Both the position numbers and the translations under genes were made by a program. This document shows, piece by piece, positions 4,932 to 13,932 of a stretch of 64,000 bases of DNA (position 1 is its first letter; each line of letters begins with the position of its first letter). The notes below the pieces were generated by a model. The model was not told the DNA's origin, did no database searches, and saw only the letters and a program-made list of their open reading frames with translations. This stretch comes from Candidatus Woesebacteria bacterium (GTDB taxonomy: Bacteria > Patescibacteriota > Microgenomatia > UBA8517): NCBI GenBank assembly GCA_963716475.1, contig OY970314.1, positions 138,479 through 202,478 of the forward strand, written 5' to 3'.

Positions 4932-6002
4932 TTGTTATATATTGAATCTATGCTGCCAGCCTTAAAACATTTCATCAAGTATCACCTCGACAGACAAAGA
5001 CTACTTTACACGAGCCTAATTGTTGTTTTTGCGACTCTATCAATGTCACTTTATTGGGTCGCACTTAAGGAGACCCGTGTTACTTTAAGTGATGAGTTTC
5101 TTCATCGGGAGCAGGTAATTGCAAGGTCGGGTAGCCAATCTATTTCTGGGTTTATTAATCTTCTTGGTAAAAGTGTAGCACTTAGAGCGGAAGATTTTTC
5201 TGCGGGTTCAAACTTGAATGATATGCAGACTGACATAAATACTTTTATGGATCATTGGAGGGATACTCCGGCTGCTGCCATTCTTCTGGCTGATAAAAAT
5301 GGGAAAGTCATTGCCCAAGCAAACAGGGCTGGAGTTCCCGATACAGGCAGTATTCTTGCAGATAAGCTATTTTTTAATTGGGCAAAGACTGCAAATAAAG
5401 GAGAATACTTCATTGGATCTCCCGGAGTGGGGATGCTCGGATACGTTAAAGGAAAATATATCTTTAATGTTGCATCACCGGTGGTTGTAAACGGGAAATT
5501 TAACGGAGTAATTTCTGTAGCAGTAATTTTAGGCGATCTTACTGATTATTACATCACCCCCATTAAAATATCTGATAGTACCAGGATGTTTTTGTTTGAT
5601 CAAAACGGTATCGTTCTTAGTTCTTTGGCAAGCAATCTGGTTGGGACAAATTACTTTGACTTCTTATCGGGATACTCCTATCCGGGTTTAGATAAAATTG
5701 TCAGTGAACTTAGAATGGCCATGATATCATCCGACAGTGAGGGCAAGCTTGATATCAGCCTGCCTGACTCCCTAACCCCCACGACTGTGGGTGAGTTTCT
5801 TGTTGCCTATTCGAAAGTGAAAGCCGGGGACAATAGTTGGCTACTCGTTATCAAATCTCCGAAAAGCGACTCCGATGCATATCTTTGGAGAATTAGAGAT
5901 GTTATTTATAGCGCTCTAGTTTTTACACTGGTTCTTGTATTATTATTCTCAATAACTAATCTGCGGGCCGAGATACATCGAAGGAAGCAAAACTCAACCT
6001 GA
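4932..6002 (+). CDS. Hypothetical membrane protein with a large extracytoplasmic Cache-like sensor domain flanked by two TM helices and no output domain
   Basis: N-terminal TM (LIVVFATLSMSLYWVAL), about 270 aa of non-hydrophobic domain, a C-terminal TM (VIYSALVFTLVLVLLF) and an 11-aa basic tail. Confidence 0.5.
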   Translation: MLYIESMLPALKHFIKYHLDRQRLLYTSLIVVFATLSMSLYWVALKETRVTLSDEFLHREQVIARSGSQSISGFINLLGKSVALRAEDFSAGSNLNDMQTDINTFMDHWRDTPAAAILLADKNGKVIAQANRAGVPDTGSILADKLFFNWAKTANKGEYFIGSPGVGMLGYVKGKYIFNVASPVVVNGKFNGVISVAVILGDLTDYYITPIKISDSTRMFLFDQNGIVLSSLASNLVGTNYFDFLSGYSYPGLDKIVSELRMAMISSDSEGKLDISLPDSLTPTTVGEFLVAYSKVKAGDNSWLLVIKSPKSDSDAYLWRIRDVIYSALVFTLVLVLLFSITNLRAEIHRRKQNST

Positions 6003-6006
6003 TCAT

Positions 6007-6258
6007 ATGATACAGCAAAATCCTCTTTGGTTTAGGGCTCTCAGGATGATTATTAAGCTTCTGATACCCTTAATATTCTTAACAACGGGTCTGGCTCTCC
6101 TGTATTTAGCAATCCCAGGGTGGAGTTTGATAGTCGGAATTCCCTCCGTAATCTTTGGTATAGTTTTCCTTTTATATACCTATGACGAGATATCCAGCCA
6201 GTCCAATTTTGATGAAGGGTTGGAAAACGGGAAACATCAAAAAGAATTGCTTCAATAG
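6007..6258 (+). CDS. Small two-TM membrane protein, hypothetical
   Basis: Two hydrophobic helices (LLIPLIFLTTGLALLYLAI, IVGIPSVIFGIVFLLY). Tightly follows the previous gene. Confidence 0.4.
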   Translation: MIQQNPLWFRALRMIIKLLIPLIFLTTGLALLYLAIPGWSLIVGIPSVIFGIVFLLYTYDEISSQSNFDEGLENGKHQKELLQ

Positions 6259-6315
6259 GTTGGTGATTTCGTACCCCAAATGATATAATATGCCTACTTT
6301 CAAGAAATTTATCCC

Positions 6316-7206
6316 ATGCGAAAACTAATAGTCCTATTGTTTTTGGTGGTATTGGCTGTTGGAGTACTTAAGCCGATGGGGGTGCTTGCCGTGGTTTCTT
6401 CCCGCACCCCTGCGCCTACGCCGACCCCAACACCAATGGCTCTTGTCACGCCCGAGCCGGCCCGCGTGGATATTACCCAAAAAAGTGTGGAAACCTTAGG
6501 CCCTCTGGAGAAACTCCTTAAGGAGCAGACACTGGGTTCAGTTTGGCCGTTGAACCCTGTTAAATATGCGATTCGTTCGTCAGTTGCTTCCGGAGTTCCT
6601 GCAAATACGATAGTTTTACTTTTGCTTTTACCGATAGTTGCTTTTGTTATTGCCTTTACAAGGAACGTAATCGGAATTAGGGGGTTCGGAATTTTTCTTC
6701 CCGCCGCTTTATCTGTTGTTTTTGTAGCCATGGGGCCAATTGTCGGAATAGGACTTTTTTTGGTAATTGTCATAGTCTCCACTGCCATGAGGATGATTCT
6801 TAGAAAACTAAAGGTTAAACTCCAATACCTACCCAGGATGGCTTTTATTCTTTGGGCGGTGGTACTCGGGGTTTTGGGAGTTCTTTTCCTGGCTCCGGTT
6901 CTGAAGTTTTCGGATCTTGCCAACGTTTCTATTTTTGCGGTCCTTTTCCTGGTGCTTTTGGCAGAGGACTTTACCCGCGTTCAGCTGGGTAAGAGCGTCA
7001 AAACAGCCATAAATCTAACCTTTGAAACACTAATATTATCTTTAATTTCGTTCCTATTTCTTACTTTCCAGCCGCTGCAAAGATATGTACTTCTTAACCC
7101 TGAAATATCCCTTTTGGTAATTGCTGTGGCCGATCTTCTTCTTGGAAAATATACCGGCCTCAGGGTTATGGAGTTTTACAGATTCAGAAAGCTTATCAGA
7201 AGCTAA
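6316..7206 (+). CDS. Polytopic membrane protein (signal-anchor, Pro/Thr linker, then 7 TM helices); resembles the 7TM module found with RimK-like ligase/retropepsin systems
   Basis: Hydrophobicity pattern shows one N-terminal helix, a TPAPTPTPTP linker, then seven helices. The stop lies 4 nt before the ATP-grasp gene start. Confidence 0.6.
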   Translation: MRKLIVLLFLVVLAVGVLKPMGVLAVVSSRTPAPTPTPTPMALVTPEPARVDITQKSVETLGPLEKLLKEQTLGSVWPLNPVKYAIRSSVASGVPANTIVLLLLLPIVAFVIAFTRNVIGIRGFGIFLPAALSVVFVAMGPIVGIGLFLVIVIVSTAMRMILRKLKVKLQYLPRMAFILWAVVLGVLGVLFLAPVLKFSDLANVSIFAVLFLVLLAEDFTRVQLGKSVKTAINLTFETLILSLISFLFLTFQPLQRYVLLNPEISLLVIAVADLLLGKYTGLRVMEFYRFRKLIRS

Positions 7207-7210
7207 AAAA

Positions 7211-8503
7211 ATGAAAATATCCTCAATTTTGGGGTTAAATGCCAGAACTCAGTTATTTGCCTATAGGTATAATACTAAACGTGGAAAAGATATTGCTGAT
7301 TCCAAGATTCAGACAACCAGAATCTTGAGAAAAGCCGGAGTAGCGCACCCCAAAATTTACAAGAAGTTTTTTGATCCTAATGATGTCTTTGAATTTGACT
7401 GGACAACCCTCCCGGATAAATTTGCTCTTAAGCCCAGCCGGGGAATGGGAGGGGAAGGAATAATAGTTGTTAAGAAACGTTTGAAGGATGGAGGGTGGTT
7501 AACTACGCAGAAAGACCGAATTAAGATTGACGATCTGAAGCTCCACGTATTGGACACTCTGGAAGGAGCATATTCTATGGGAAACGTACCCGATGTTGCT
7601 TTCGTTCAGGAATATGTAGGGAGGGCTAAAGCCTTCAGAAGGTGGGCCTACAGGGGAACCCCTGACATCCGTATTATTGTGTTTAATAAGGTTCCTGTAA
7701 TGGCCATGCTTCGTTTACCGACTAGAGAAAGCGGTGGAAGGGCTAATTTGCATCAGGGGGCTATTGGTGTGGGTGTTGACATCGCTACAGGCATTACTAC
7801 AAAGGCAATCTGGCACGGTGAACAAATTATATTTAAGCCCGGTACGGAAAGAAAACTTAGGGGAATAAAAATTCCCAGCTGGACGTTGGTTTTGGAAACC
7901 GCCGTTGCTGCACAAATTGCTTCGGGACTTGGGTATGCAGGGGTGGACATCGTGATTCACCCGGAAAAGGGGCCGATGGTACTAGAGCTTAATGCGCAGC
8001 CCGGACTTCAGATACAACTAGCCAATATGGAGGGTCTTAAAAAACGACTGGAGCGGGTGGAAGACCTTGACGTTGTTGATGCACAACATGGGGTTATGAT
8101 TGCCAAAGCAATATTCGCCGGGAGATTTGAAAACAGGAGAGCAGTAGAGGAAGGAATAAAAACCCTTAAAAGTTTGGAAGAAGTTAAGATTTACAGTTTT
8201 GATAAATCCAAAAAAGCGAAGGTTTTGGCCCGTATCGATACGGGGGCCGTAAGAAGCTCCATCGATAAAAAACTTGCTGGAGAGTTAGGACTCTTGGTTA
8301 AAGAGAATGTATTGTGGAAAGACAGGGGGTATAGATCTGCAACAGGTCGGGAAACACGTCCTGTAATAGGAGTACAGTATGTGATAGCCGGCAAAAAAAT
8401 CAAGTCCTCAGTATCCGTTGCCGATAGGTCGAAAATGTCAACCCGGTTTCTCATAGGAAGGAGCGATATGGCAGGGTTTTTAATTAATCCAAACGCGGAA
8501 TGA
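7211..8503 (+). CDS. Alpha-L-glutamate ligase-like (RimK-related) ATP-grasp enzyme fused to a C-terminal retropepsin-like aspartyl-protease domain (DUF785, the mis-named ATP-dependent zinc protease family)
   Basis: N-terminal ILGLNARTQLFAYRYN...DSKIQTTRIL resembles the RimK-related E-ligase family. ATP-grasp core KPSRGMGGEGIIVV...VLELNAQPG. C-terminal KAKVLARIDTGAVRSS...RPVIG...VADRSKMSTRFLIGRSDMAGF matches the retropepsin-like DTGA fold. Start moved to the ATG at 7211. Confidence 0.75.
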   Translation: MKISSILGLNARTQLFAYRYNTKRGKDIADSKIQTTRILRKAGVAHPKIYKKFFDPNDVFEFDWTTLPDKFALKPSRGMGGEGIIVVKKRLKDGGWLTTQKDRIKIDDLKLHVLDTLEGAYSMGNVPDVAFVQEYVGRAKAFRRWAYRGTPDIRIIVFNKVPVMAMLRLPTRESGGRANLHQGAIGVGVDIATGITTKAIWHGEQIIFKPGTERKLRGIKIPSWTLVLETAVAAQIASGLGYAGVDIVIHPEKGPMVLELNAQPGLQIQLANMEGLKKRLERVEDLDVVDAQHGVMIAKAIFAGRFENRRAVEEGIKTLKSLEEVKIYSFDKSKKAKVLARIDTGAVRSSIDKKLAGELGLLVKENVLWKDRGYRSATGRETRPVIGVQYVIAGKKIKSSVSVADRSKMSTRFLIGRSDMAGFLINPNAE

Positions 8504-10341
8504 CAAAAAGAAAAAAGATATTAATCATAGTTGGGGGAGGGACGAAGCACCTTTCTACATTTGGATTGGAGGGTAGAAAACTTGGAATAGATGTAACACT
8601 GGCGTCTTTTTCCGATTTGGAATACGACTTTAAAGGTACCGATAAGGAATTTGCGATTACGGTGAGTGGGAAAGACTTGGCCAATTTCGATGTAATTTAT
8701 TTCAGGTTGGTGGGCAAAAGGTTGGAGGATGCTTCAATTGTTGCAAATTATGCAAAGGGAAAACGAATAAAAATAGTTGACAAAATATACAAAAAATCTC
8801 AATTTATCCGTCTTCCTTTGACTAAGGGTCTGGAAACAAAACTCTTGTTTGAGCAAGGGCTTCCTGTTCCAAGGACATTATTCTTGTCGTTACACGAGAT
8901 GGCAAAAAAAGCTCCGGAGCTGCTTGGTTTCCCGTTTGTTATCAAGGGCACTAACGGTAAACAAGGTCATGCGGTGTGGTTGCCGGAAAGCTTGGGTGAA
9001 TTAAAAAGACTTGTCAAGGATTTGGGCCCTCGCGAAACTTTGGGAGAAAGGTTTCTGGCACAGCAGTTTATAAAAGCTAGTATTAGGATTAGGGTGTTTG
9101 TGATAGGAGGTAAAGCCAGGGCTGCCATCGTGAGACCTACAAGATGGAGAAGCCGATTCGATAGAGGTGAACCTTTAAGATTGAGCTACAAGAAAGTTCC
9201 GTTAAAGTATGCGCAAGTTGCCGAAAAGGCAGCCAAGTCATTGTACATTGATATAGCTGGGGTTGATTTGCTGGAGGATATAGATAAAAAATTATACGTA
9301 CTGGAAGTGAATTCGGCACCGCGTTGGGACTCAATTGAAAAGGATACGGGGTTGAATGTAGAAAGGGAGATTCTCAAGTTTTTAATCACCGTCAAACCTG
9401 AGCGTAAGATATTGATGGATGAGTTTGCCAAAAAGGCTGTTAAGTTTGGATATACCGTCAGAGAGTATCTATCAGATAAAAGAGTTTACGAGGTTTCAAA
9501 AAATGGAAAGATTGCAATAACAATTAGTAAACATTTTCCGCTAAATACAGTCGTAGGGTCTCAACTGGCAAAAAGGAAGAACCTGACAAAACAAATTCTA
9601 AAAAAAGCCGGCATACCGATTCCTAACGGAATTTTAACCGACAACTGGAACGAGGTTTTGCAATCATTAAATACAGGGAAAATCAGTTTTCCTTTAGTTG
9701 CCAAGCCTGATACATCCTCGTTGGGGAAATTTGTCGCTGCAAAAATTGAAGACCCGGCGGATTTAAAAGCAGTTTTCGAAAGAATAAGAAAGAAATTTGG
9801 AACTGTTTTGATAGAGGAATATATTAGTGGGGAAGAATATCGCTTCTTGGTTCTGGATGGTAAAGTCTTGGCCGTTGCCCATAGAATTTTGCCTTTTGTC
9901 ATCAGCGACGGGAAGTCAAAAATTTCGGAGTTAATAGACGGTTATAATAAAGGAAGGATAGAACCTTTGATACTTGGGTATGAGGTGGAGAGAGTCCTTG
10001 GCAAACAGGGATTTGATTACAATAGCATTCCGGAGAGCGGACAAAAAATTCTTCTGAGAAGTAATTCGAATGCCCATACGGGAGGAAAGGTTGAAAATCC
10101 TATCGGTAAAGTTCACTCGAAATATTTTGAGACAGCTATTAAAGCAACGGAAACTTTAGGTTTGAGGTTTTGTGGCGTTGATATTATAACGGAAGATATA
10201 ATGAGTGGAGAGTCCAGATATTTTGTTATCGAGCTTAATGCCGATCCGGGGTATGATTTGCATTGGGAAACTGAAAACGGGGGTAAGTATGATGCTACAG
10301 AAGATATCCTAAATACGTTATTTTCGGACAAATCTGCATAA
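8500..10341 (+). CDS. Tandem double ATP-grasp ligase: N-terminal RimK-like module plus C-terminal cyanophycin-synthetase-N-terminal-like ATP-grasp module
   Basis: Module 1: FPFVIKGTNGKQGHAVW...YVLEVNSAPRW. Module 2: FPLVAKPDTSSLGKFV...ISDGKSKISELIDG...YFVIELNADPG. 4-nt overlap with the upstream gene. Confidence 0.7.
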   Translation: MTKRKKILIIVGGGTKHLSTFGLEGRKLGIDVTLASFSDLEYDFKGTDKEFAITVSGKDLANFDVIYFRLVGKRLEDASIVANYAKGKRIKIVDKIYKKSQFIRLPLTKGLETKLLFEQGLPVPRTLFLSLHEMAKKAPELLGFPFVIKGTNGKQGHAVWLPESLGELKRLVKDLGPRETLGERFLAQQFIKASIRIRVFVIGGKARAAIVRPTRWRSRFDRGEPLRLSYKKVPLKYAQVAEKAAKSLYIDIAGVDLLEDIDKKLYVLEVNSAPRWDSIEKDTGLNVEREILKFLITVKPERKILMDEFAKKAVKFGYTVREYLSDKRVYEVSKNGKIAITISKHFPLNTVVGSQLAKRKNLTKQILKKAGIPIPNGILTDNWNEVLQSLNTGKISFPLVAKPDTSSLGKFVAAKIEDPADLKAVFERIRKKFGTVLIEEYISGEEYRFLVLDGKVLAVAHRILPFVISDGKSKISELIDGYNKGRIEPLILGYEVERVLGKQGFDYNSIPESGQKILLRSNSNAHTGGKVENPIGKVHSKYFETAIKATETLGLRFCGVDIITEDIMSGESRYFVIELNADPGYDLHWETENGGKYDATEDILNTLFSDKSA

Positions 10342-10423
10342 TATAGTTACTCTTCATTCTGTGAAAATATTGTAATTTTCACAATCCAAATATAATACGA
10401 AGGATATATTTTATCCACAAAAA

Positions 10424-10452
10424 ATCCGTCACGTTTAAGACGGATTTTTTGT
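10424..10452. terminator. Bidirectional rho-independent terminator between the ligase gene (+) and rplL (-)
   Basis: aaaATCCGTCacgtttaaGACGGATtttttt: a 7-bp stem with an A-run upstream and a T-run downstream. Confidence 0.6.
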
Positions 10453-10508
10453 TGTAGACCCAAATAAGTTATTTGAATTCTACGGCGTCACCGCCGAGAG
10501 TGAAAGTC

Positions 10509-10922
10509 TTATTTGAGCTCTACAGTTGCTCCAGCTGCTTTCAATTTCTCTGATGCGCTTTTAGCGTCTTCCGCTTTAGCGTCTTTGAGAACTTCAGCCG
10601 GGAGCGTTTCGGTCATTCCTTTCGCATCCATTAAAGTCAGATTGGGATTAATTTCCCTTAAAGCTTTAATAACAGCAATTTTATTTGCACCCGAAACTGT
10701 CATGGTAACTGTTTGGTTAGCACTACCTGCATCAGCTGCTTGGGCTTCCGCCCCTGCCGCCACCGGAGCTGCCACCGCTGCCGCAACGGGCATGGCTCCA
10801 CTAACTCCAAGTTTTTCCTGCAGAGCACTAACTAACTCCGAAAGTTCCAAAACCGAAAGTTTTGCAACTTCCTCAACCATTTTCTCTACTTTTCCCGATA
10901 CTTTTTTTGATTCTTCTGCCAT
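10509..10922 (-). CDS. rplL: 50S ribosomal protein L7/L12
   Basis: N-terminal dimerisation helix, Ala/Val-rich hinge, conserved C-terminal domain (KIAVIKALREI...GATVELK). Confidence 0.9.
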   Translation of the reverse strand: MAEESKKVSGKVEKMVEEVAKLSVLELSELVSALQEKLGVSGAMPVAAAVAAPVAAGAEAQAADAGSANQTVTMTVSGANKIAVIKALREINPNLTLMDAKGMTETLPAEVLKDAKAEDAKSASEKLKAAGATVELK

Positions 10923-10941
10923 ATTAATTCACCTCCTGTCC

Positions 10942-11478
10942 TTACTTTTTGCTGGCCTGATCTAAAACATTTACCAGCTTCTGCAAATTTGCATTCAAAG
11001 TTCCGACCAAGCCATACTCGCTGCCCATCAAGGTTCCAAGCAATTGCCCAAGTAGCGCATCGCGTCCGGGGAGTTTGGAAAGTTTAACCAAAGAAATCTC
11101 GTCCTGGAAAGATCCTTCGACGATGCCGACTTTAAATTTAGGTACAGGCAAGCCGGCTTCACTGACAAACTCACCTGCAAACTTACCCAAAACCTGAATA
11201 GGGGCAATAGGGTCTTCACTTGCAATTATCAAGGCGGTTTGACCGGCAAGTATAGAATCGGTTAAAAGCGCCTTATCAATTCCTACAGATTCTCCGGCAC
11301 GTTTAAGAAGCGTGTTTTTAACGACTATCATTTTTCCACCAACGGCAGAAAGACGTCCTTTTAATTCCTGCTGAGCTTTAACTCCAAGTCCTGAATAATT
11401 AACCAAAGTTACAGACTTGGCACCTTTCAGCTCATCTTTTAAATTGTCTACAAATATTACTTTTTCTGCTTTTAGCAT
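10942..11478 (-). CDS. rplJ: 50S ribosomal protein L10
   Basis: L10-family sequence in the conserved position upstream of rplL. Confidence 0.85.
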   Translation of the reverse strand: MLKAEKVIFVDNLKDELKGAKSVTLVNYSGLGVKAQQELKGRLSAVGGKMIVVKNTLLKRAGESVGIDKALLTDSILAGQTALIIASEDPIAPIQVLGKFAGEFVSEAGLPVPKFKVGIVEGSFQDEISLVKLSKLPGRDALLGQLLGTLMGSEYGLVGTLNANLQKLVNVLDQASKK

Positions 11479-11503
11479 TTATTGATTTAAGTCCAAAAAA
11501 AAC

Positions 11504-11522
11504 GCGCCCCGAGGGCGCTTTT
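11504..11522. terminator. GC-rich hairpin (GCGCCCcgagGGGCGC) with flanking A/T runs in the rplA-rplJ spacer; candidate attenuator of the L10 leader
   Basis: Palindrome plus a T-run on either strand. The position corresponds to the known rplJ leader attenuator of other bacteria. Confidence 0.4.
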
Positions 11523-11963
11523 GAACTTAAAGCGGTGTTTCCTCGGTACGACTTAATTTTACGCGTACTTTCTTAGGACAAGGGAATGATAACTTATTCT
11601 GCCGGTGAAGTCAATCTGTTTTTGGAAGAAGGGGTGTGTGTCTGCCGGTTCTTCTTTCGATCCTTCTTTTCATACGAGATTCTCTTTCCTTGGCTTCGCC
11701 GTTTAGAAATTTCTTGTCCTCGGCCACGGTACTCGTACTGGAAATATTTGTATTGTCGGATTGAGGCGTTTTGGACCAATCAGCCAGAGTGGTCGGCTGT
11801 GAGGGCGTATTTACATGACTTAGAACTTTATCAAGTATTACGCCGTAATCATACTCGTCTCCCTTTTCAGAACTTTCTTTAGAGGTTTTATCTTCGTCAG
11901 AGCCGGTAATAAGATTCTCGGATGACATAGGCGGTCAAATGCTAGCAGAAGAGTGCTTTAAAA

Positions 11964-12758
11964 TCAAACCTTAATCTTTACAGAGGGCCCCATAGTAGCT
12001 TTGATATAGGCTTTATCAATCTGTTTAGCTCTGCCAAAGGCCTTAAAAATCGTTTCTATGTTTTCTGCCAGTTCTTTACCGTCCTGGCTGACTTTGCCGA
12101 CTACGGTATGAATTAGAGGAGCTTCTTTCTCTGTTTTGAGAACTACGGAGCCGGTCGAAAAACCTTGTGCCTTTTTTGCATCAGGTACTAAAGTGCCGTT
12201 TTTAGGATTTGGCATTAGTCCCTTGGGTCCCAAAAGTCTTGCAAAAGGAACAAGCTTTGGCATCATTTCAGTGGTTGCCACCAAAATATCAAAGTCGATT
12301 TTACCGTTTTTAAGTTTTTCAACTGTTTCATCTGTCGCAACTTCAACCTTTTTGGTTTTGCCTGCCTGGTGGGGAAGAGCTACTTGTGCTGAAATACCGG
12401 CCTTTTTAACAATCATATGCAGTTCAACCGTTCCATCAAATTTAGAATAGGAAGTCTCTTTGACAAGTTTAATTGCATCCGTTACAGAATAGACTTTTAT
12501 ATTGTCAAACTTTTTTTTGGATTCTACGTATTTTTTCCCCCTTACCTTTTCGACAATCTTTTTTCCACTGACTTTTTTACCCTCGTCACCTTTGGTTTCG
12601 GTTTCTGTCTCGGTAGGTACCTCGGCCTCAACCATCTTCACTCTTTGGCCACCCTTAAGACCGGCCAAATGAACTTTTTCAGCCTCTGCTTTATGAGCCT
12701 TTTCGCTTTTTTCTTTGTTTTTGTTTTCACCCACCTGGGCGGTTTTCATTTTCCCCAT
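11964..12758 (-). CDS. rplA: 50S ribosomal protein L1 with a ~70-aa Lys/Glu-rich N-terminal extension
   Basis: Core KYVESKKKFDNIKVYSVTDAIKLVKE...LLGPKGLMPNPKNGT matches L1. The preceding residues are KE-rich low complexity. Confidence 0.85.
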   Translation of the reverse strand: MGKMKTAQVGENKNKEKSEKAHKAEAEKVHLAGLKGGQRVKMVEAEVPTETETETKGDEGKKVSGKKIVEKVRGKKYVESKKKFDNIKVYSVTDAIKLVKETSYSKFDGTVELHMIVKKAGISAQVALPHQAGKTKKVEVATDETVEKLKNGKIDFDILVATTEMMPKLVPFARLLGPKGLMPNPKNGTLVPDAKKAQGFSTGSVVLKTEKEAPLIHTVVGKVSQDGKELAENIETIFKAFGRAKQIDKAYIKATMGPSVKIKV

Positions 12759-12761
12759 AAA

Positions 12762-13184
12762 TTAATCTATTGTTACCCCCATACTTCTTGCTGTTCCCTC
12801 CACGATCTTCATAGCGGCATCGATATTTTTTGTGTTAAGGTCAGCCATTTTTTCCTCTGCGATTTTCCTTACTTGCTCCTTAGTCAAAGTTCCTGCAGGT
12901 TCTCTTGGGGCTTTGCCTGATCCTTTTTCGATACCGAGAGCTTTCTTGATCATATCGGAAACGGGAGCTTTTTTAATAACAAAAGTGAAGGATCTGTCTT
13001 CAAAAATGGTGATAACAGCAGGAACAACCTCGCCCTTCATGTCTTTGGTCTTTTCGTTATATTGCTTAACGAAGTCCATAATGGCAACACCATGTTGTCC
13101 CAAGGCTGTTCCCACGGGAGGAGCGGGAGTTGCCACCCCAGCCTGTAAATTGATTTTGACTACCGTTTTAACCTTTTTTGCCAT
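12762..13184 (-). CDS. rplK: 50S ribosomal protein L11
   Basis: [33 protein letters not shown] is a canonical L11 N-terminus. Confidence 0.9.
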
Positions 13185-13320
13185 TTATATTTCGGAAGAG
13201 GGTTTTACCCCCTTCCGCCTTTCCCCAAAACAGGGAGTCGACAAACAATCAAACGCAAAGGGAACCCTTTTTTAGAAGTTTCGACTTGCGTCTCCCTCAG
13301 ATAAATCCGAGGTATTGGTA

Positions 13321-13932
13321 TTATACCTTTTGAATTTGTAAGAAATCAAGTTCGACAGGGGTTTCCCTGCCGAAGATTGATACCAAAACCTTAACCTTTC
13401 CTTTTTCCTCGTCCATTTCATGAATTGTTCCCAAAAAATCAGAGAAAGGTCCGTCTGTGATTTTAATAGCTTCTCCAACGGAAAACTTGGTCTTGAACCT
13501 CGGAGCGGGGGAACTTACGAATTTTTGAATGTTTGCAACTTCTGCCTCAGATAGGGGGGTGGGGTTATTACCCGCGCCTACAAATCCGGTAATTCCAGCA
13601 GTTGTTCTTACCGCGAGCCAAGTCGGATCATCCAAAATCATTTTAATTAAAAGATACCCGGGGAAAATTTTTTCCTTGATTGTGGCCTTTTTGCCGCTTC
13701 TGATGATAACTCTGTCTTGGGTTGGAACGAGCATTTCGAAAACTCTACCCACAAGATTCATTGTCTCAACCCTCTGACGCAAGGTTTCCATAACACGAAC
13801 TTCGTGCCCTGAGGAGGTGTGGACCACATACCACTTGGCCTTCGGATCGGTGGTTGCGGCAATAATCATATGTCCCGGGATTTTTTTATTGCCGGTTCCA
13901 CGCTCTGATACTTGTATGGTGTCTTCGCTCAT
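13321..13932 (-). CDS. nusG: Transcription termination/antitermination factor NusG
   Basis: KWYVVHTSSGHEVRV NGN domain and C-terminal KOW (FSVGEAIKITDGPFSDFLGTIHEMD). The start may be the internal Met 21 codons downstream. Confidence 0.85.
   Translation of the reverse strand: MSEDTIQVSERGTGNKKIPGHMIIAATTDPKAKWYVVHTSSGHEVRVMETLRQRVETMNLVGRVFEMLVPTQDRVIIRSGKKATIKEKIFPGYLLIKMILDDPTWLAVRTTAGITGFVGAGNNPTPLSEAEVANIQKFVSSPAPRFKTKFSVGEAIKITDGPFSDFLGTIHEMDEEKGKVKVLVSIFGRETPVELDFLQIQKV

What the first reader, a model, noticed from the sequence alone, without database searches (positions are those of the whole stretch)
8150..8503. Retropepsin-like aspartyl protease domain fused in cis to the ligase
In proteobacterial RimK loci the retropepsin-like protein is a separate small gene (RimB-like). 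Here it is the C-terminal ~115 aa of the ligase itself, with an intact D-T-G-A catalytic motif. Fusion implies obligate coupling of ligation and proteolysis on the same substrate, for example length control of a poly-amino-acid tail or leader removal.
Basis: partly seen in the sequence, partly recalled or inferred. Interest (0 to 1): 0.6.

Follow-up and report, generated by a model that had tools for sequence, protein, structure and literature searches.

The report
Ligase with built-in retropepsin-like protease
The last 117 codons of an ATP-dependent peptide ligase gene really do encode a small HIV-protease-like domain, and this ligase-protease fusion, always paired with a seven-helix membrane protein gene, is a conserved, unstudied relative of the Pseudomonas Rim/Rlo polyglutamate systems in tiny-genome Patescibacteria.

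Summary
Confirmed. Window 8150-8500 encodes residues 314-430 of a 430-aa protein (7211-8503, +). DTGA is at 8237-8248 and a second retropepsin hallmark, IGRSD, at 8453-8467. The domain passes Pfam PF05618 (RimB-like/DUF785). A profile of it finds the RloA crystal structures, Lpg0085, Ddi1 and APRc. Its AlphaFold model (pLDDT 89) matches RloA2, Lpg0085, Ddi1 and HIV-1 protease.

The ligase it is fused to is not RimK. It is the RloC-type ATP-grasp (PF14397/TIGR02291-like). The RimK-family enzyme is the next gene (8500-10341). The upstream gene (6316-7206) is an RloB-like 7TM protein without the transglutaminase domain.

In 83 related genome loci, 82 carry the same fusion, 81 have the 7TM gene directly upstream, and 79 keep D[TS]G[AS]. 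Three have NTGR/HTGR instead.

Three basic residues needed for polyglutamate cleavage in RloA are conserved (R341, R383, R406). The likeliest function is cytoplasmic trimming or turnover of an acidic, probably poly-alpha-glutamate, chain made by the attached ligase, as in RimB/RimK and the RimBK hybrid.

This is a new variant of a known kind. The architecture sits in databases but is not described in the papers I could search. Interest is moderate.

The parts
6316..7206 (+). RloB-like membrane protein, 296 aa. It has an N-terminal hydrophobic signal/anchor, a Pro/Thr-rich linker and a 7TM_transglut domain. It has no transglutaminase domain.
   Evidence: Pfam PF14402 scores 90 bits, residues 100-293. 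NCBIfam RloB matches only profile positions 312-507 of 508. A homologous gene lies directly upstream on the same strand in 81/83 related loci. The stop codon is 4 nt before the next ATG. A perfect TATAAT sits at 6284-6289 (direct reading).
7211..8503 (+). Gene for the 430-aa ligase-protease fusion protein.
   Evidence: ORF; start fixed by homologues. More than 120 homologues of ~430 aa at over 70% identity. Full-length matches in 80 species-level genomes down to 40% identity.
7217..8077 (+). RloC-type ATP-grasp ligase domain (residues 3-289).
   Evidence: PF14397 6e-65; TIGR02291 1e-79. The AF2 model's best PDB matches are RimK, ArgX/LysX and cyanophycin synthetase. K74, D246, E259 and N261 are invariant in 79 sequences; that these are the ATP/Mg2+ positions is my reading of the ATP-grasp fold, not a structural mapping.
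8078..8149 (+). Helical region plus a low-confidence linker (residues 290-313) between ligase and protease domains.
   Evidence: AF2: helix 291-305, pLDDT below 50 for residues 304-316.
8150..8500 (+). Compact retropepsin-like (RimB/RloA-family, clan AA) aspartic peptidase domain, residues 314-430.
   Evidence: pI 10.1, net charge about +11.
8237..8248 (+). Catalytic motif D343-T-G-A346.
   Evidence: Direct reading. Invariant in 120/120 homologues and D[TS]G[AS] in 79/83 loci.
8231..8233 (+). R341, two residues before the catalytic Asp; equivalent of RloA K46.
   Evidence: K in 9g59, 9g58 and 2pma at the same position. K or R in homologues. Role of K46 from PMC12239564.
8357..8359 (+). R383 of the 'RPV' motif at the start of the strand after the flap tip; equivalent of RloA R114.
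   Evidence: Aligned to ERPV/ARPV/KRPV of 9g59, 9g58 and 2pma. Nearly invariant. The 23-residue spacing to R406 equals the R114-R137 spacing.
8426..8428 (+). R406 of the 'DRS' motif; equivalent of RloA R137.
   Evidence: Aligned to TDRS/TNRK in the RloA and Lpg0085 structures. Invariant in 79 sequences.
8453..8467 (+). I415-G-R-S-D419, counterpart of the retropepsin 'IIGRN/D' motif that precedes the C-terminal helix.
   Evidence: G416 and R417 are invariant; D419 is nearly invariant. Motif present in 118/120 homologues.
8500..10341 (+). 613-aa double ATP-grasp protein: an N-terminal RimK-family ligase plus a C-terminal cyanophycin-synthetase/GshAB-like ATP-grasp. It is a frequent but not universal accessory of the module.
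   Evidence: TIGR00768 scores 189.5 bits against a cut-off of 143.4; CphA model 1e-69 over residues 350-611; Pfam RimK 8e-41. The ATG overlaps the fusion gene's TGA (ATGA at 8500-8503). At least one such ligase lies downstream in 55/83 loci.

Best explanation
**What it is.** Positions 8150-8500 encode a genuine, very probably active, compact retropepsin-like aspartic peptidase domain of the RimB/RloA (PF05618) family. It is fused to the C-terminus of an RloC-type ATP-grasp amidoligase. With the RloB-like 7TM gene just upstream it forms a conserved two-gene core in Patescibacteria, often extended by RimK/CphA-like ligases, as here at 8500-10341.

**Proposed mechanism.**
- Inferred from family membership: the cytoplasmic ATP-grasp domain adds amino acids, most likely alpha-linked glutamate, to a growing acidic chain, either free or on a carrier.
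- Inferred: oligomerisation of the ligase brings two protease domains together, forming the two-Asp active site that every retropepsin needs.
- Motifs shown, activity inferred: the basic substrate channel (R341, R383, R406; domain pI ~10) binds the acidic chain and cleaves it. This sets chain length or turnover. As RimB does for RimK, it may also stimulate the ligase.
- Speculative: the 7TM partner anchors the enzyme at the membrane and may pass the product outward.

**How it differs from Pseudomonas Rlo.** The protease here has no signal peptide. It must act on the cytoplasmic side.
For: **Domain identity.**
- PF05618 is above its cut-off.
- The A2 profile hits RloA, RloA2, Lpg0085, Ddi1 and APRc.
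- The AF2 domain model has pLDDT 89, with Foldseek top hits RloA2, Lpg0085, Ddi1, RloA and HIV-1 protease.

**Catalytic competence.**
- DTGA in 120/120 and GRxD in 118/120 homologues.
- D[TS]G[AS] in 79/83 loci across 40-88% identity.
- All 150 best family representatives keep the motif.

**Acidic substrate.**
- The counterparts of RloA K46, R114 and R137 are conserved. R114A and R137A most strongly reduced polyE cleavage and failed to rescue the mutant in vivo (PMC12239564).
- The domain has pI 10.1.

**Ligase identity.** PF14397 and a TIGR02291-like match. The closest structures are RimK poly-alpha-glutamate synthetases.

**Functional linkage.**
- The fusion is present in 82/83 loci and the 7TM gene lies upstream in 81/83.
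- The genes are tightly packed: a 4-nt gap and an ATGA overlap.
- The same protease domain is fused to each of the other components elsewhere: 7TM (P0128, P0203, P0209), the PF14397 ligase (P0136 and others) and RimK (P0217, P0244).

**Precedents.**
- The RimBK hybrid is proteolytically active on polyglutamylated RpsF, and RimB stimulates RimK (PMC11957791).
- rloB and rloC mutations suppress the loss of the RloA proteases (PMC12239564).
Against: - There are no biochemical data for any member of this fusion family.
- The product of RloC-type ligases is unknown, even in Pseudomonas.
- TIGR02291 scores below its curated cut-off (268 against 314 bits).
- The Pfam PF05618 alignment covers only profile positions 74-122 of 138. 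The domain lacks the long insert (flap region) of RloA/RimB, so its specificity may differ.
- Three loci replace DTGA by NTGR/HTGR and also lose both conserved arginines. The domain can therefore persist without catalysis.
- In RloA systems, and in the 7TM fusions, the protease is extracytoplasmic. That is the opposite side of the membrane from here.
- Dimer formation and the relative placement of the two domains were not modelled. The linker has low confidence.
- No polyE-containing ORF and no rpsF gene were found in the window.
Confidence: 0.6

Rival explanations
1. The C-terminal domain is mainly a structural or regulatory module. It dimerises or activates the ATP-grasp enzyme, as RimB stimulates RimK ATPase, and proteolysis is secondary or absent.
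For: Three related loci (L053, L067, L074) keep the domain but have NTGR/HTGR instead of DTGA and have lost the RPV and DR arginines. RimB binding up-regulates RimK ATPase and polyE synthesis (PMC11957791).
Against: The catalytic motif and the substrate-binding arginines are invariant in nearly all other members, across sequences only 40% identical overall. That implies selection on catalysis. The window's copy has every catalytic hallmark.
Confidence: 0.15
2. The protease domain is a self-processing module. Like retroviral polyprotein proteases, it cuts the linker and releases a free ligase and a free ~115-aa protease.
For: Retroviral precedent (general knowledge). The linker at residues 304-316 is predicted disordered. 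Many standalone ~110-130-aa members of the same compact family exist.
Against: The linker (FENRRAVEEGIK) is not a polyacidic stretch of the kind RimB/RloA cut; they need at least 5-8 consecutive Glu. The RimBK hybrid was purified as a hybrid protein. No evidence of processing is available.
Confidence: 0.1
3. A RiPP-like system. The ATP-grasp enzymes modify a ribosomal precursor peptide, the retropepsin removes its leader, and the 7TM protein exports the product.
For: There are several ATP-grasp ligases in one operon. ATP-grasp RiPP maturases such as PsnB appear among distant structural matches.
Against: No conserved small ORF accompanies the module. The neighbours upstream (Cache protein, 83-aa protein) are absent from all 83 related loci, and nothing plausible lies between 10341 and rplL. 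The ligases are of the RimK/RloC/CphA type, which polymerise amino acids, not graspetide cyclases (the TIGR04187 match is weak). The conserved basic channel matches polyE-specific proteases.
Confidence: 0.05
4. The DTGA is fortuitous, or the fusion is a sequencing or frameshift artefact joining two genes.
For: None, beyond the fact that the single-sequence PDB search was weak (E=0.26).
Against: Profile, Pfam and fold evidence. The same in-frame fusion occurs in 82/83 independent genomes.
Confidence: 0.01

Closest known systems
RloABC operon of Pseudomonas and Vibrio (retropepsin-like osmotic stress tolerance; Lormand et al. 2025, PMC12239564)
   Same: The same three protein families are genetically linked: an RloA/RimB-family retropepsin, an RloB-type 7TM domain (PF14402) and an RloC-type ATP-grasp (PF14397/TIGR02291-like). 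DTGA and the three conserved polyE-binding basic residues are retained.
   Different: Here the protease has no signal peptide and is the C-terminal domain of the cytoplasmic ligase, whereas RloA is secreted. The 7TM protein lacks the inactive transglutaminase domain. The protease is compact (~117 aa against ~150) and lacks the long flap insert and the disulfide cysteines. Extra RimK/CphA-like ligases are attached. The host is a Patescibacterium; the paper reports RloB as 96% proteobacterial.
RimB/RimK and the RimBK hybrid (Little et al. 2025, PMC11957791)
   Same: A cytoplasmic retropepsin-like protease is paired with, or fused to, an ATP-grasp glutamate ligase. The RimBK hybrid shows that such a fusion can be proteolytically active on polyglutamate tails.
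   Different: In RimBK the protease is N-terminal and the ligase is RimK proper. Here the protease is C-terminal and the ligase is RloC-type, failing the RimK models. Rim loci have no 7TM partner. RimBK is reported mainly in Flavobacteriales and Rhodobacterales.
Lpg0085 (PDB 2pma) and PF05618 'Zn_protease'/DUF785/RimB-like standalone proteins
   Same: The same Pfam family. The DTGA, RPV and [DN]R motifs align.
   Different: Those are standalone, longer proteins. The window's domain covers only part of the Pfam profile in the reported alignment.
Viral and eukaryotic retropepsins (HIV-1 protease, Ddi1 RVP domain, rickettsial APRc)
   Same: The same fold, similar size (~100-120 aa), DTGA, an IIGR(N/D) motif and a short flap hairpin.
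   Different: Very low sequence identity (14-24%). The domain has a basic rather than hydrophobic character and a different genomic context.

Membership tests
Clan AA retropepsin-like peptidases / Pfam PF05618 (RimB-like, DUF785) | Catalytic Asp in a hydrophobic-hydrophobic-D-T/S-G-A motif | tested here: met
   A-R-I-D343-T-G-A346 at 8237-8248. DTGA in 120/120 homologues.
Clan AA retropepsin-like peptidases / Pfam PF05618 (RimB-like, DUF785) | Score above the Pfam gathering threshold | tested here: met
   29.4 bits in the whole protein and 34.4 bits for the domain alone, against a cut-off of 27. The alignment covers only profile positions 74-122 of 138. 17/17 members of A2 match.
Clan AA retropepsin-like peptidases / Pfam PF05618 (RimB-like, DUF785) | Retropepsin fold: beta-rich half-barrel, flap hairpin, G-R-(N/D) motif before a C-terminal helix | tested here: met
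   AF2 pLDDT 89.3, with a hairpin at residues 54-63/66-79 of the domain. Foldseek matches RloA2, Lpg0085, Ddi1 and HIV-1 protease at probability 1.00, TM 0.5-0.65. IGRSD at 415-419.
Clan AA retropepsin-like peptidases / Pfam PF05618 (RimB-like, DUF785) | Homodimer forming a two-Asp active site | not testable with these tools
   Only monomer prediction was available. RimK-type ligases are oligomeric (crystal entries), which would favour pairing. This is inference.
Clan AA retropepsin-like peptidases / Pfam PF05618 (RimB-like, DUF785) | Proteolytic activity that depends on the Asp | not testable with these tools
   Needs a D343N/A mutant and a cleavage assay.
RimB/RloA polyglutamate-specific subgroup | Conserved basic residues K46, R114 and R137 (RloA numbering) lining the channel | tested here: met
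   R341 (K in most homologues), R383 and R406 align with K, R and R of 9g59, 9g58 and 2pma. They are invariant or nearly so. The R-to-R spacing of 23 is as in RloA.
RimB/RloA polyglutamate-specific subgroup | Long flexible flap insert between the DTG region and the RPV strand | tested here: not met
   D343 to R383 is 40 residues, against 68 in 9g59. The Moranbacteria-type relatives do carry a ~35-aa insert.
RimK proper (ribosomal protein S6--L-glutamate ligase) | Score above the TIGR00768 / PRK10446 cut-offs | tested here: not met
   For the fusion protein, 46.4 against 143.4 bits and 24.2 against 331 bits. The downstream gene does pass TIGR00768 (189.5 bits).
RloC-type ATP-grasp (PF14397 ATPgrasp_ST; TIGR02291 alpha-L-glutamate ligase-like) | Family model scores | tested here: inconclusive
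   PF14397 scores 219.6 bits against 31.4 (met). TIGR02291 scores 267.7 bits against a curated 314.2 (just below).
RloABC operon | Secreted RloA with an N-terminal signal peptide | tested here: not met
   The protease domain is internal, at the C-terminus of a cytoplasmic ATP-grasp protein, with no signal peptide.
RloABC operon | RloB: inactive transglutaminase domain fused to 7TM | tested here: not met
   Only the 7TM part is present. The RloB model matches positions 312-507 of 508, and the protein is 296 aa.
RloABC operon | Co-directional linkage of protease, 7TM and ATP-grasp genes | tested here: met
   The 4-nt gap between the 7TM gene and the fusion gene. The arrangement is conserved in 81/83 loci.
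RimBK hybrid | N-terminal RimB domain followed by RimK | tested here: not met
   The order is reversed and the ligase family differs. True RimBK-type architectures were seen in P0217 and P0244.

The most novel reading that the evidence does not exclude
The 7TM protein plus ligase-protease fusion may be a minimal machine that makes, length-controls and possibly exports an acidic polyamino acid (poly-alpha-glutamate-like) for envelope or osmotic homeostasis. It is retained in many ~1-Mb Patescibacteria genomes. The same protease domain is found tethered either inside the cell (fused to the ligase, as here) or outside (signal anchor plus protease plus 7TM, as in P0128, P0203 and P0209). Its substrate would then be a chain that crosses the membrane through, or alongside, the 7TM protein. 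That would also explain the unsolved topology puzzle of the Pseudomonas Rlo system, where the ligase is cytoplasmic and the protease periplasmic.
Probability: 0.25. Interest if true: 0.7.

Novelty: new variant of a known kind. Interest (0 to 1): 0.45.

Why it matters
The Rlo system was described only in 2025. Its chemistry is unknown, yet it affects osmotic tolerance, biofilm formation and antibiotic sensitivity in Pseudomonas.

This Patescibacterial version is a natural 'Rosetta stone'. It physically joins the RloA-type protease to the RloC-type ligase, dispenses with the transglutaminase domain, and keeps the 7TM partner in 81 of 83 loci. Three points follow:
- The ligase, the protease and the 7TM domain form the functional core.
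- The protease and the ligase act on the same molecule.
- Cleavage can take place on the cytoplasmic side.

The fusion is a soluble, single-chain candidate for biochemistry on what RloC-type ligases make. It also adds a widespread prokaryotic lineage of HIV-protease-sized retropepsins, including tandem duplicates. That is relevant to the debate on the origin of aspartic proteases.

Tried and rejected
- **Single-sequence PDB search** with the domain gave only E=0.26 to 9g59. A profile was needed.
- **The search for homologous proteins with the domain alone** returned only 6 short proteins, a limit of the word index. It was replaced by the exhaustive profile search.
- **The search for related loci with the domain alignment A2** failed because no conserved stretch was found. 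The full-length alignment A3 was used instead.
- **Substrate search in the window.** There is no convincing rpsF and no run of 5 or more D/E in any ORF of at least 60 aa. No candidate substrate is therefore encoded nearby.
- **Promoter and terminator scan** of 5900-10700 was not above shuffled expectation.
- **TTG 7121 start rejected.** It would overlap the 7TM gene by 86 nt, and homologues begin at the ATG at 7211.
- **Upstream neighbours rejected as parts of the module.** The Cache-domain gene and the 83-aa membrane protein gene are absent from all 83 related loci.
Full report
**1. The observation**

The region lies in an ORF listed as 7121..8503 (+). Sixteen close homologues all begin MK(I/T/L)SSILGLNAR. 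The true start is therefore the ATG at 7211, 4 nt after the stop of the upstream gene, giving a 430-aa protein. Position 8150 is codon 314, and 8501-8503 is the stop. The sequence gat-acg-ggg-gcc at 8237-8248 encodes D343-T-G-A346.

**2. Is it a real retropepsin-like domain?**

Yes. Five lines of evidence agree.

- **Pfam.** The whole protein matches PF05618 ('Zn_protease', now named RimB-like; formerly DUF785) at 29.4 bits. The isolated domain scores 34.4 bits, against a cut-off of 27. There are weaker matches to gag-asp_proteas and Asp_protease_2 that span the DTG region. NCBIfam gives partial matches to RloA3 and RloA2.
- **Motif conservation.** DTGA is present in 120/120 homologues of over 70% identity. 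The second retropepsin hallmark, [ILVM]-G-[RK]-x-D (here IGRSD 415-419, the counterpart of HIV-1 'IIGRN'), is present in 118/120.
- **Profile against solved structures.** A profile of 17 domain sequences (A2) finds the crystal structures of RloA2 and RloA (9g59 at 1.3e-8, 9g58 at 5.6e-8) and Legionella Lpg0085/DUF785 (2pma at 1.2e-5). It then finds Ddi1, the rickettsial APRc and foamy-virus protease.
- **Predicted fold.** AlphaFold2 on A2 gives pLDDT 89.3 and pTM 0.80. The model is an all-beta domain with one short helix after the DTGA strand, a long hairpin (residues 54-63/66-79 of the domain, tip ...SATGRE...) in the flap position, and a short helical turn after IGRSD. Foldseek against the PDB returns RloA2, Lpg0085, Ddi1 RVP domains, RloA, HIV-1, HTLV and foamy-virus proteases, with 55 hits at E<=1e-3.
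- **Independent genomes.** The tail is in frame in 82 of 83 independent genome loci. It is not an assembly artefact.

**3. What it is fused to, and the neighbourhood**

Residues 3-289 are an ATP-grasp of the 'sugar-transfer associated' / alpha-L-glutamate-ligase-like family. PF14397 scores 6e-65. TIGR02291 scores 1e-79 (268 bits), slightly below the curated 314. It fails the RimK-proper models: TIGR00768 gives 46 against 143 bits, and PRK10446 gives 24 against 331. Its AF2 model (pLDDT 76) is closest to RimK, ArgX/LysX and cyanophycin synthetase. K74, D246, E259 and N261 are invariant; I read them as the ATP/Mg2+ positions of the ATP-grasp fold without mapping them onto a structure.

The upstream gene (6316-7206) is a 296-aa protein with a signal/anchor helix, a PT-rich linker and a PF14402 7TM_transglut domain. 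It matches only the C-terminal 7TM part (positions 312-507 of 508) of NCBIfam's RloB model, so the inactive transglutaminase domain is missing.

The downstream gene (8500-10341) has a start that overlaps the fusion gene's stop as ATGA. It is a 613-aa double ATP-grasp. The N-terminal half passes the RimK-family model (189.5 against 143.4 bits). The C-terminal half resembles the cyanophycin-synthetase/GshAB ATP-grasp.

The flanks are housekeeping genes. Upstream are GHMP kinase, SIS, epimerase, cysteine desulfurase and NifU. Downstream and convergent are rplL, rplJ, rplA, rplK and nusG.

**4. Relatives**

- **Database homologues.** The protein database holds 5068 hits with E<=0.001 among the 8000 candidates scored (only the best 120 were inspected). 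Those best 120 are all ~430 aa and come from Woesebacteria, Microgenomates, Woykebacteria and other Patescibacteria.
- **Species-level genomes.** In a one-genome-per-species collection, at least 597 stretches encode a relative. The best 80 all match over residues ~1-425/430, at 88% down to 40% identity. Their labels include Woese-, Shapiro-, Blackburn-, Moran-, Pacei- and Saccharibacteria.
- **My scan of 83 loci.** 82 have a tail of at least 100 aa that matches the retropepsin HMM. 79 have D[TS]G[AS]. 81 have the 7TM gene immediately upstream on the same strand. 55 have at least one further RimK/CphA-like ligase downstream, and 24 have two or more.
- **Not part of the module.** The Cache-domain gene and the 83-aa gene upstream in the window are never conserved.
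- **Core.** The invariant core is therefore the 7TM gene plus the ligase-protease fusion.
- **Inactivated copies.** Three loci (L053, L067, L074) carry NTGR/HTGR in place of DTGA and have also lost the RPV and DR arginines.
- **Long-flap copies.** Moranbacteria-type copies carry a ~35-aa insert where RloA has its long flap.

**5. The wider domain family**

An exhaustive profile search found 4529 cluster representatives at E<=1e-3, and 825 at E<=1e-10. All of the top 150 keep D[TS]G[AS]. The architectures seen are:

| Architecture | Examples |
|---|---|
| Standalone, ~110-130 aa | 101 of the top 150 are <=165 aa; some may be fragments |
| Tandem duplicates, two DTGA motifs | P0127, P0130, P0132, P0138 |
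| Signal anchor + one or two protease domains + 7TM_transglut | P0128, P0203, P0209 (Pfam-confirmed); P0212, P0216, P0237, P0263 (same length, DTG position and N-terminal hydrophobic helix, not Pfam-scanned) |
| PF14397 ligase + C-terminal protease (the window's type) | Pfam-confirmed for P0136, P0142, P0163, P0194; P0255 and P0272 by size and domain position; plus 13 fragments, most beginning inside the ATP-grasp |
| Protease + RimK (RimBK type) | P0217, P0244 |
| Class-I LysRS + protease | P0221 |

The protease has therefore been fused independently to each partner of the system. That is strong 'guilt by fusion' evidence that they act together. In the 7TM fusions the protease follows an N-terminal hydrophobic helix and so should face outward. 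In the window it must be cytoplasmic.

**6. Comparison with the literature**

- **Lormand et al. 2025 (PMC12239564).**
  - They define the rloABC operon: a secreted retropepsin-like RloA, RloB (inactive transglutaminase plus 7TM) and a cytoplasmic ATP-grasp RloC.
  - RloA cleaves runs of 8 or more Glu. K46, R114 and R137 line the channel, and R114A and R137A most strongly reduce activity and fail to complement in vivo.
  - Loss of all three RloA proteases is suppressed by rloB or rloC mutations.
  - The RloC product is unknown. RloB was found to be 96% proteobacterial.
- **Little et al. 2025 (PMC11957791).**
  - RimB is a dimeric retropepsin-like endopeptidase specific for polyglutamate tails.
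  - It stimulates RimK.
  - RimBK hybrids (protease N-terminal to RimK) occur in 12% of rim-bearing accessions and are proteolytically active.
- **Mapping onto the window.** The equivalents of K46, R114 and R137 are R341 (K in most homologues), R383 and R406. They align with K, R and R in 9g59, 9g58 and 2pma and show the same 23-residue R-to-R spacing. They are invariant or nearly so. The domain has pI 10.1.
- **Literature gap.** Full-text searches for RimBK, RloC, RimB-like, DUF785 and inactive transglutaminase found no paper describing the RloC-type C-terminal fusion or any Patescibacterial version.

**7. Mechanism**

- **Shown:** the domain identities, the conserved catalytic and basic residues, and the conserved gene linkage.
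- **Inferred:**
  - The ligase builds an acidic, most likely alpha-polyglutamate, chain.
  - Two protease domains pair on the oligomeric ligase.
  - They cleave the chain to control its length or turnover, and possibly stimulate the ligase.
- **Speculative:** the 7TM partner anchors the complex at the membrane and may translocate the product.
- **Caveats:**
  - There is no biochemistry for this family.
  - The flap is shorter than in RloA/RimB.
  - A few lineages carry an inactivated domain.
  - The protease topology is opposite to that of RloA.

**8. Rivals**

| Rival | Confidence | Main point |
|---|---|---|
| Mainly regulatory or scaffolding domain | 0.15 | Supported by the NTGR/HTGR variants and by RimB's stimulatory role; opposed by near-universal conservation of the catalytic residues |
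| Self-processing polyprotein-like release | 0.1 | The linker is disordered but not acidic |
| RiPP leader peptidase | 0.05 | No conserved precursor gene |
| Chance motif or artefact | 0.01 | Refuted |

**9. Verdict**

This is a new variant of a known kind. It is an Rlo/Rim-type ligase-protease system in which an HIV-protease-sized retropepsin is the C-terminal domain of an RloC-type ligase. It is paired with a transglutaminase-less 7TM protein and is conserved across Patescibacteria. Interest is moderate (0.45). Its main value is as a natural fusion that constrains models of the uncharacterised Rlo chemistry, and as a tractable target for biochemistry.

Noticed in passing
window 8500-10341 (+): A 613-aa protein joins two different ATP-grasp ligases in one chain: an N-terminal RimK-family half that passes TIGR00768, and a C-terminal cyanophycin-synthetase/GshAB-like half. 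Only L004 among the 83 relatives has the same fused form (635 aa); in the other loci the matching ligases lie in ORFs too short to hold both halves. Two to four amidoligase active sites in one operon hint at a heteropolymer or a multi-step product.
   Followed up: partly
L053, L067, L074 (protease tail of the fusion gene): These three loci keep the retropepsin-like tail but have NTGR/HTGR instead of DTGA. They have also lost the RPV and DR arginines. This is an apparently inactivated protease domain retained on the ligase.
   Followed up: partly
P0127, P0130, P0132, P0138 (representative search): These 220-260-aa proteins contain two tandem compact retropepsin domains, each with its own DTGA/DTGAS motif. 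They are single-chain pseudo-dimers, the arrangement that pepsins reached by duplication.
   Followed up: no
P0128, P0203, P0209, P0212, P0216, P0237, P0263: One or two compact retropepsin domains follow an N-terminal hydrophobic helix and precede a 7TM_transglut domain. They take the place of RloB's inactive transglutaminase. The protease would then sit outside the membrane, opposite to the window's cytoplasmic fusion. The 7TM domain was Pfam-confirmed only for P0128, P0203 and P0209; the other four are assigned by length, DTG position and N-terminal helix.
   Followed up: partly
P0221 (539 aa): A class-I lysyl-tRNA synthetase (PF01921) carries a C-terminal compact retropepsin domain with DTGA. 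Purpose unknown.
   Followed up: no
window 4932-6002 (+) and 6007-6258 (+): A 356-aa membrane protein with a dCache_1 sensor domain and no recognisable output domain is followed by an 83-aa two-helix membrane protein. Neither gene is conserved next to the module in 83 relatives.
   Followed up: partly
L005, L007, L009, L017 and others; L023, L054, L068: Many MAG records carrying this typically Patescibacterial module are titled 'uncultured Gammaproteobacteria/Bdellovibrionales/Pseudomonadales/Micavibrio' or 'Woesearchaeota/Pacearchaeota'. They share synteny and 40-74% identity with the Patescibacterial copies, and one is an 810,692-bp 'chromosome'. The taxonomic labels look unreliable.
   Followed up: no
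window 10509-13932 (-) and L001-L003: The module lies convergent to the rplL-rplJ-rplA-rplK-nusG cluster in the window and in distant relatives. An rplL homologue lies within the flanks in 37/83 loci. This may be simple conserved synteny, but it is notable because RimK systems modify a ribosomal protein.
   Followed up: partly
window 6284-6289: A perfect TATAAT lies 27 nt upstream of the 7TM gene's ATG, with TTGGTG 18 nt further upstream. It is a possible operon promoter. The consensus scan did not report it because the -35 hexamer matches only 3 of 6.
   Followed up: no
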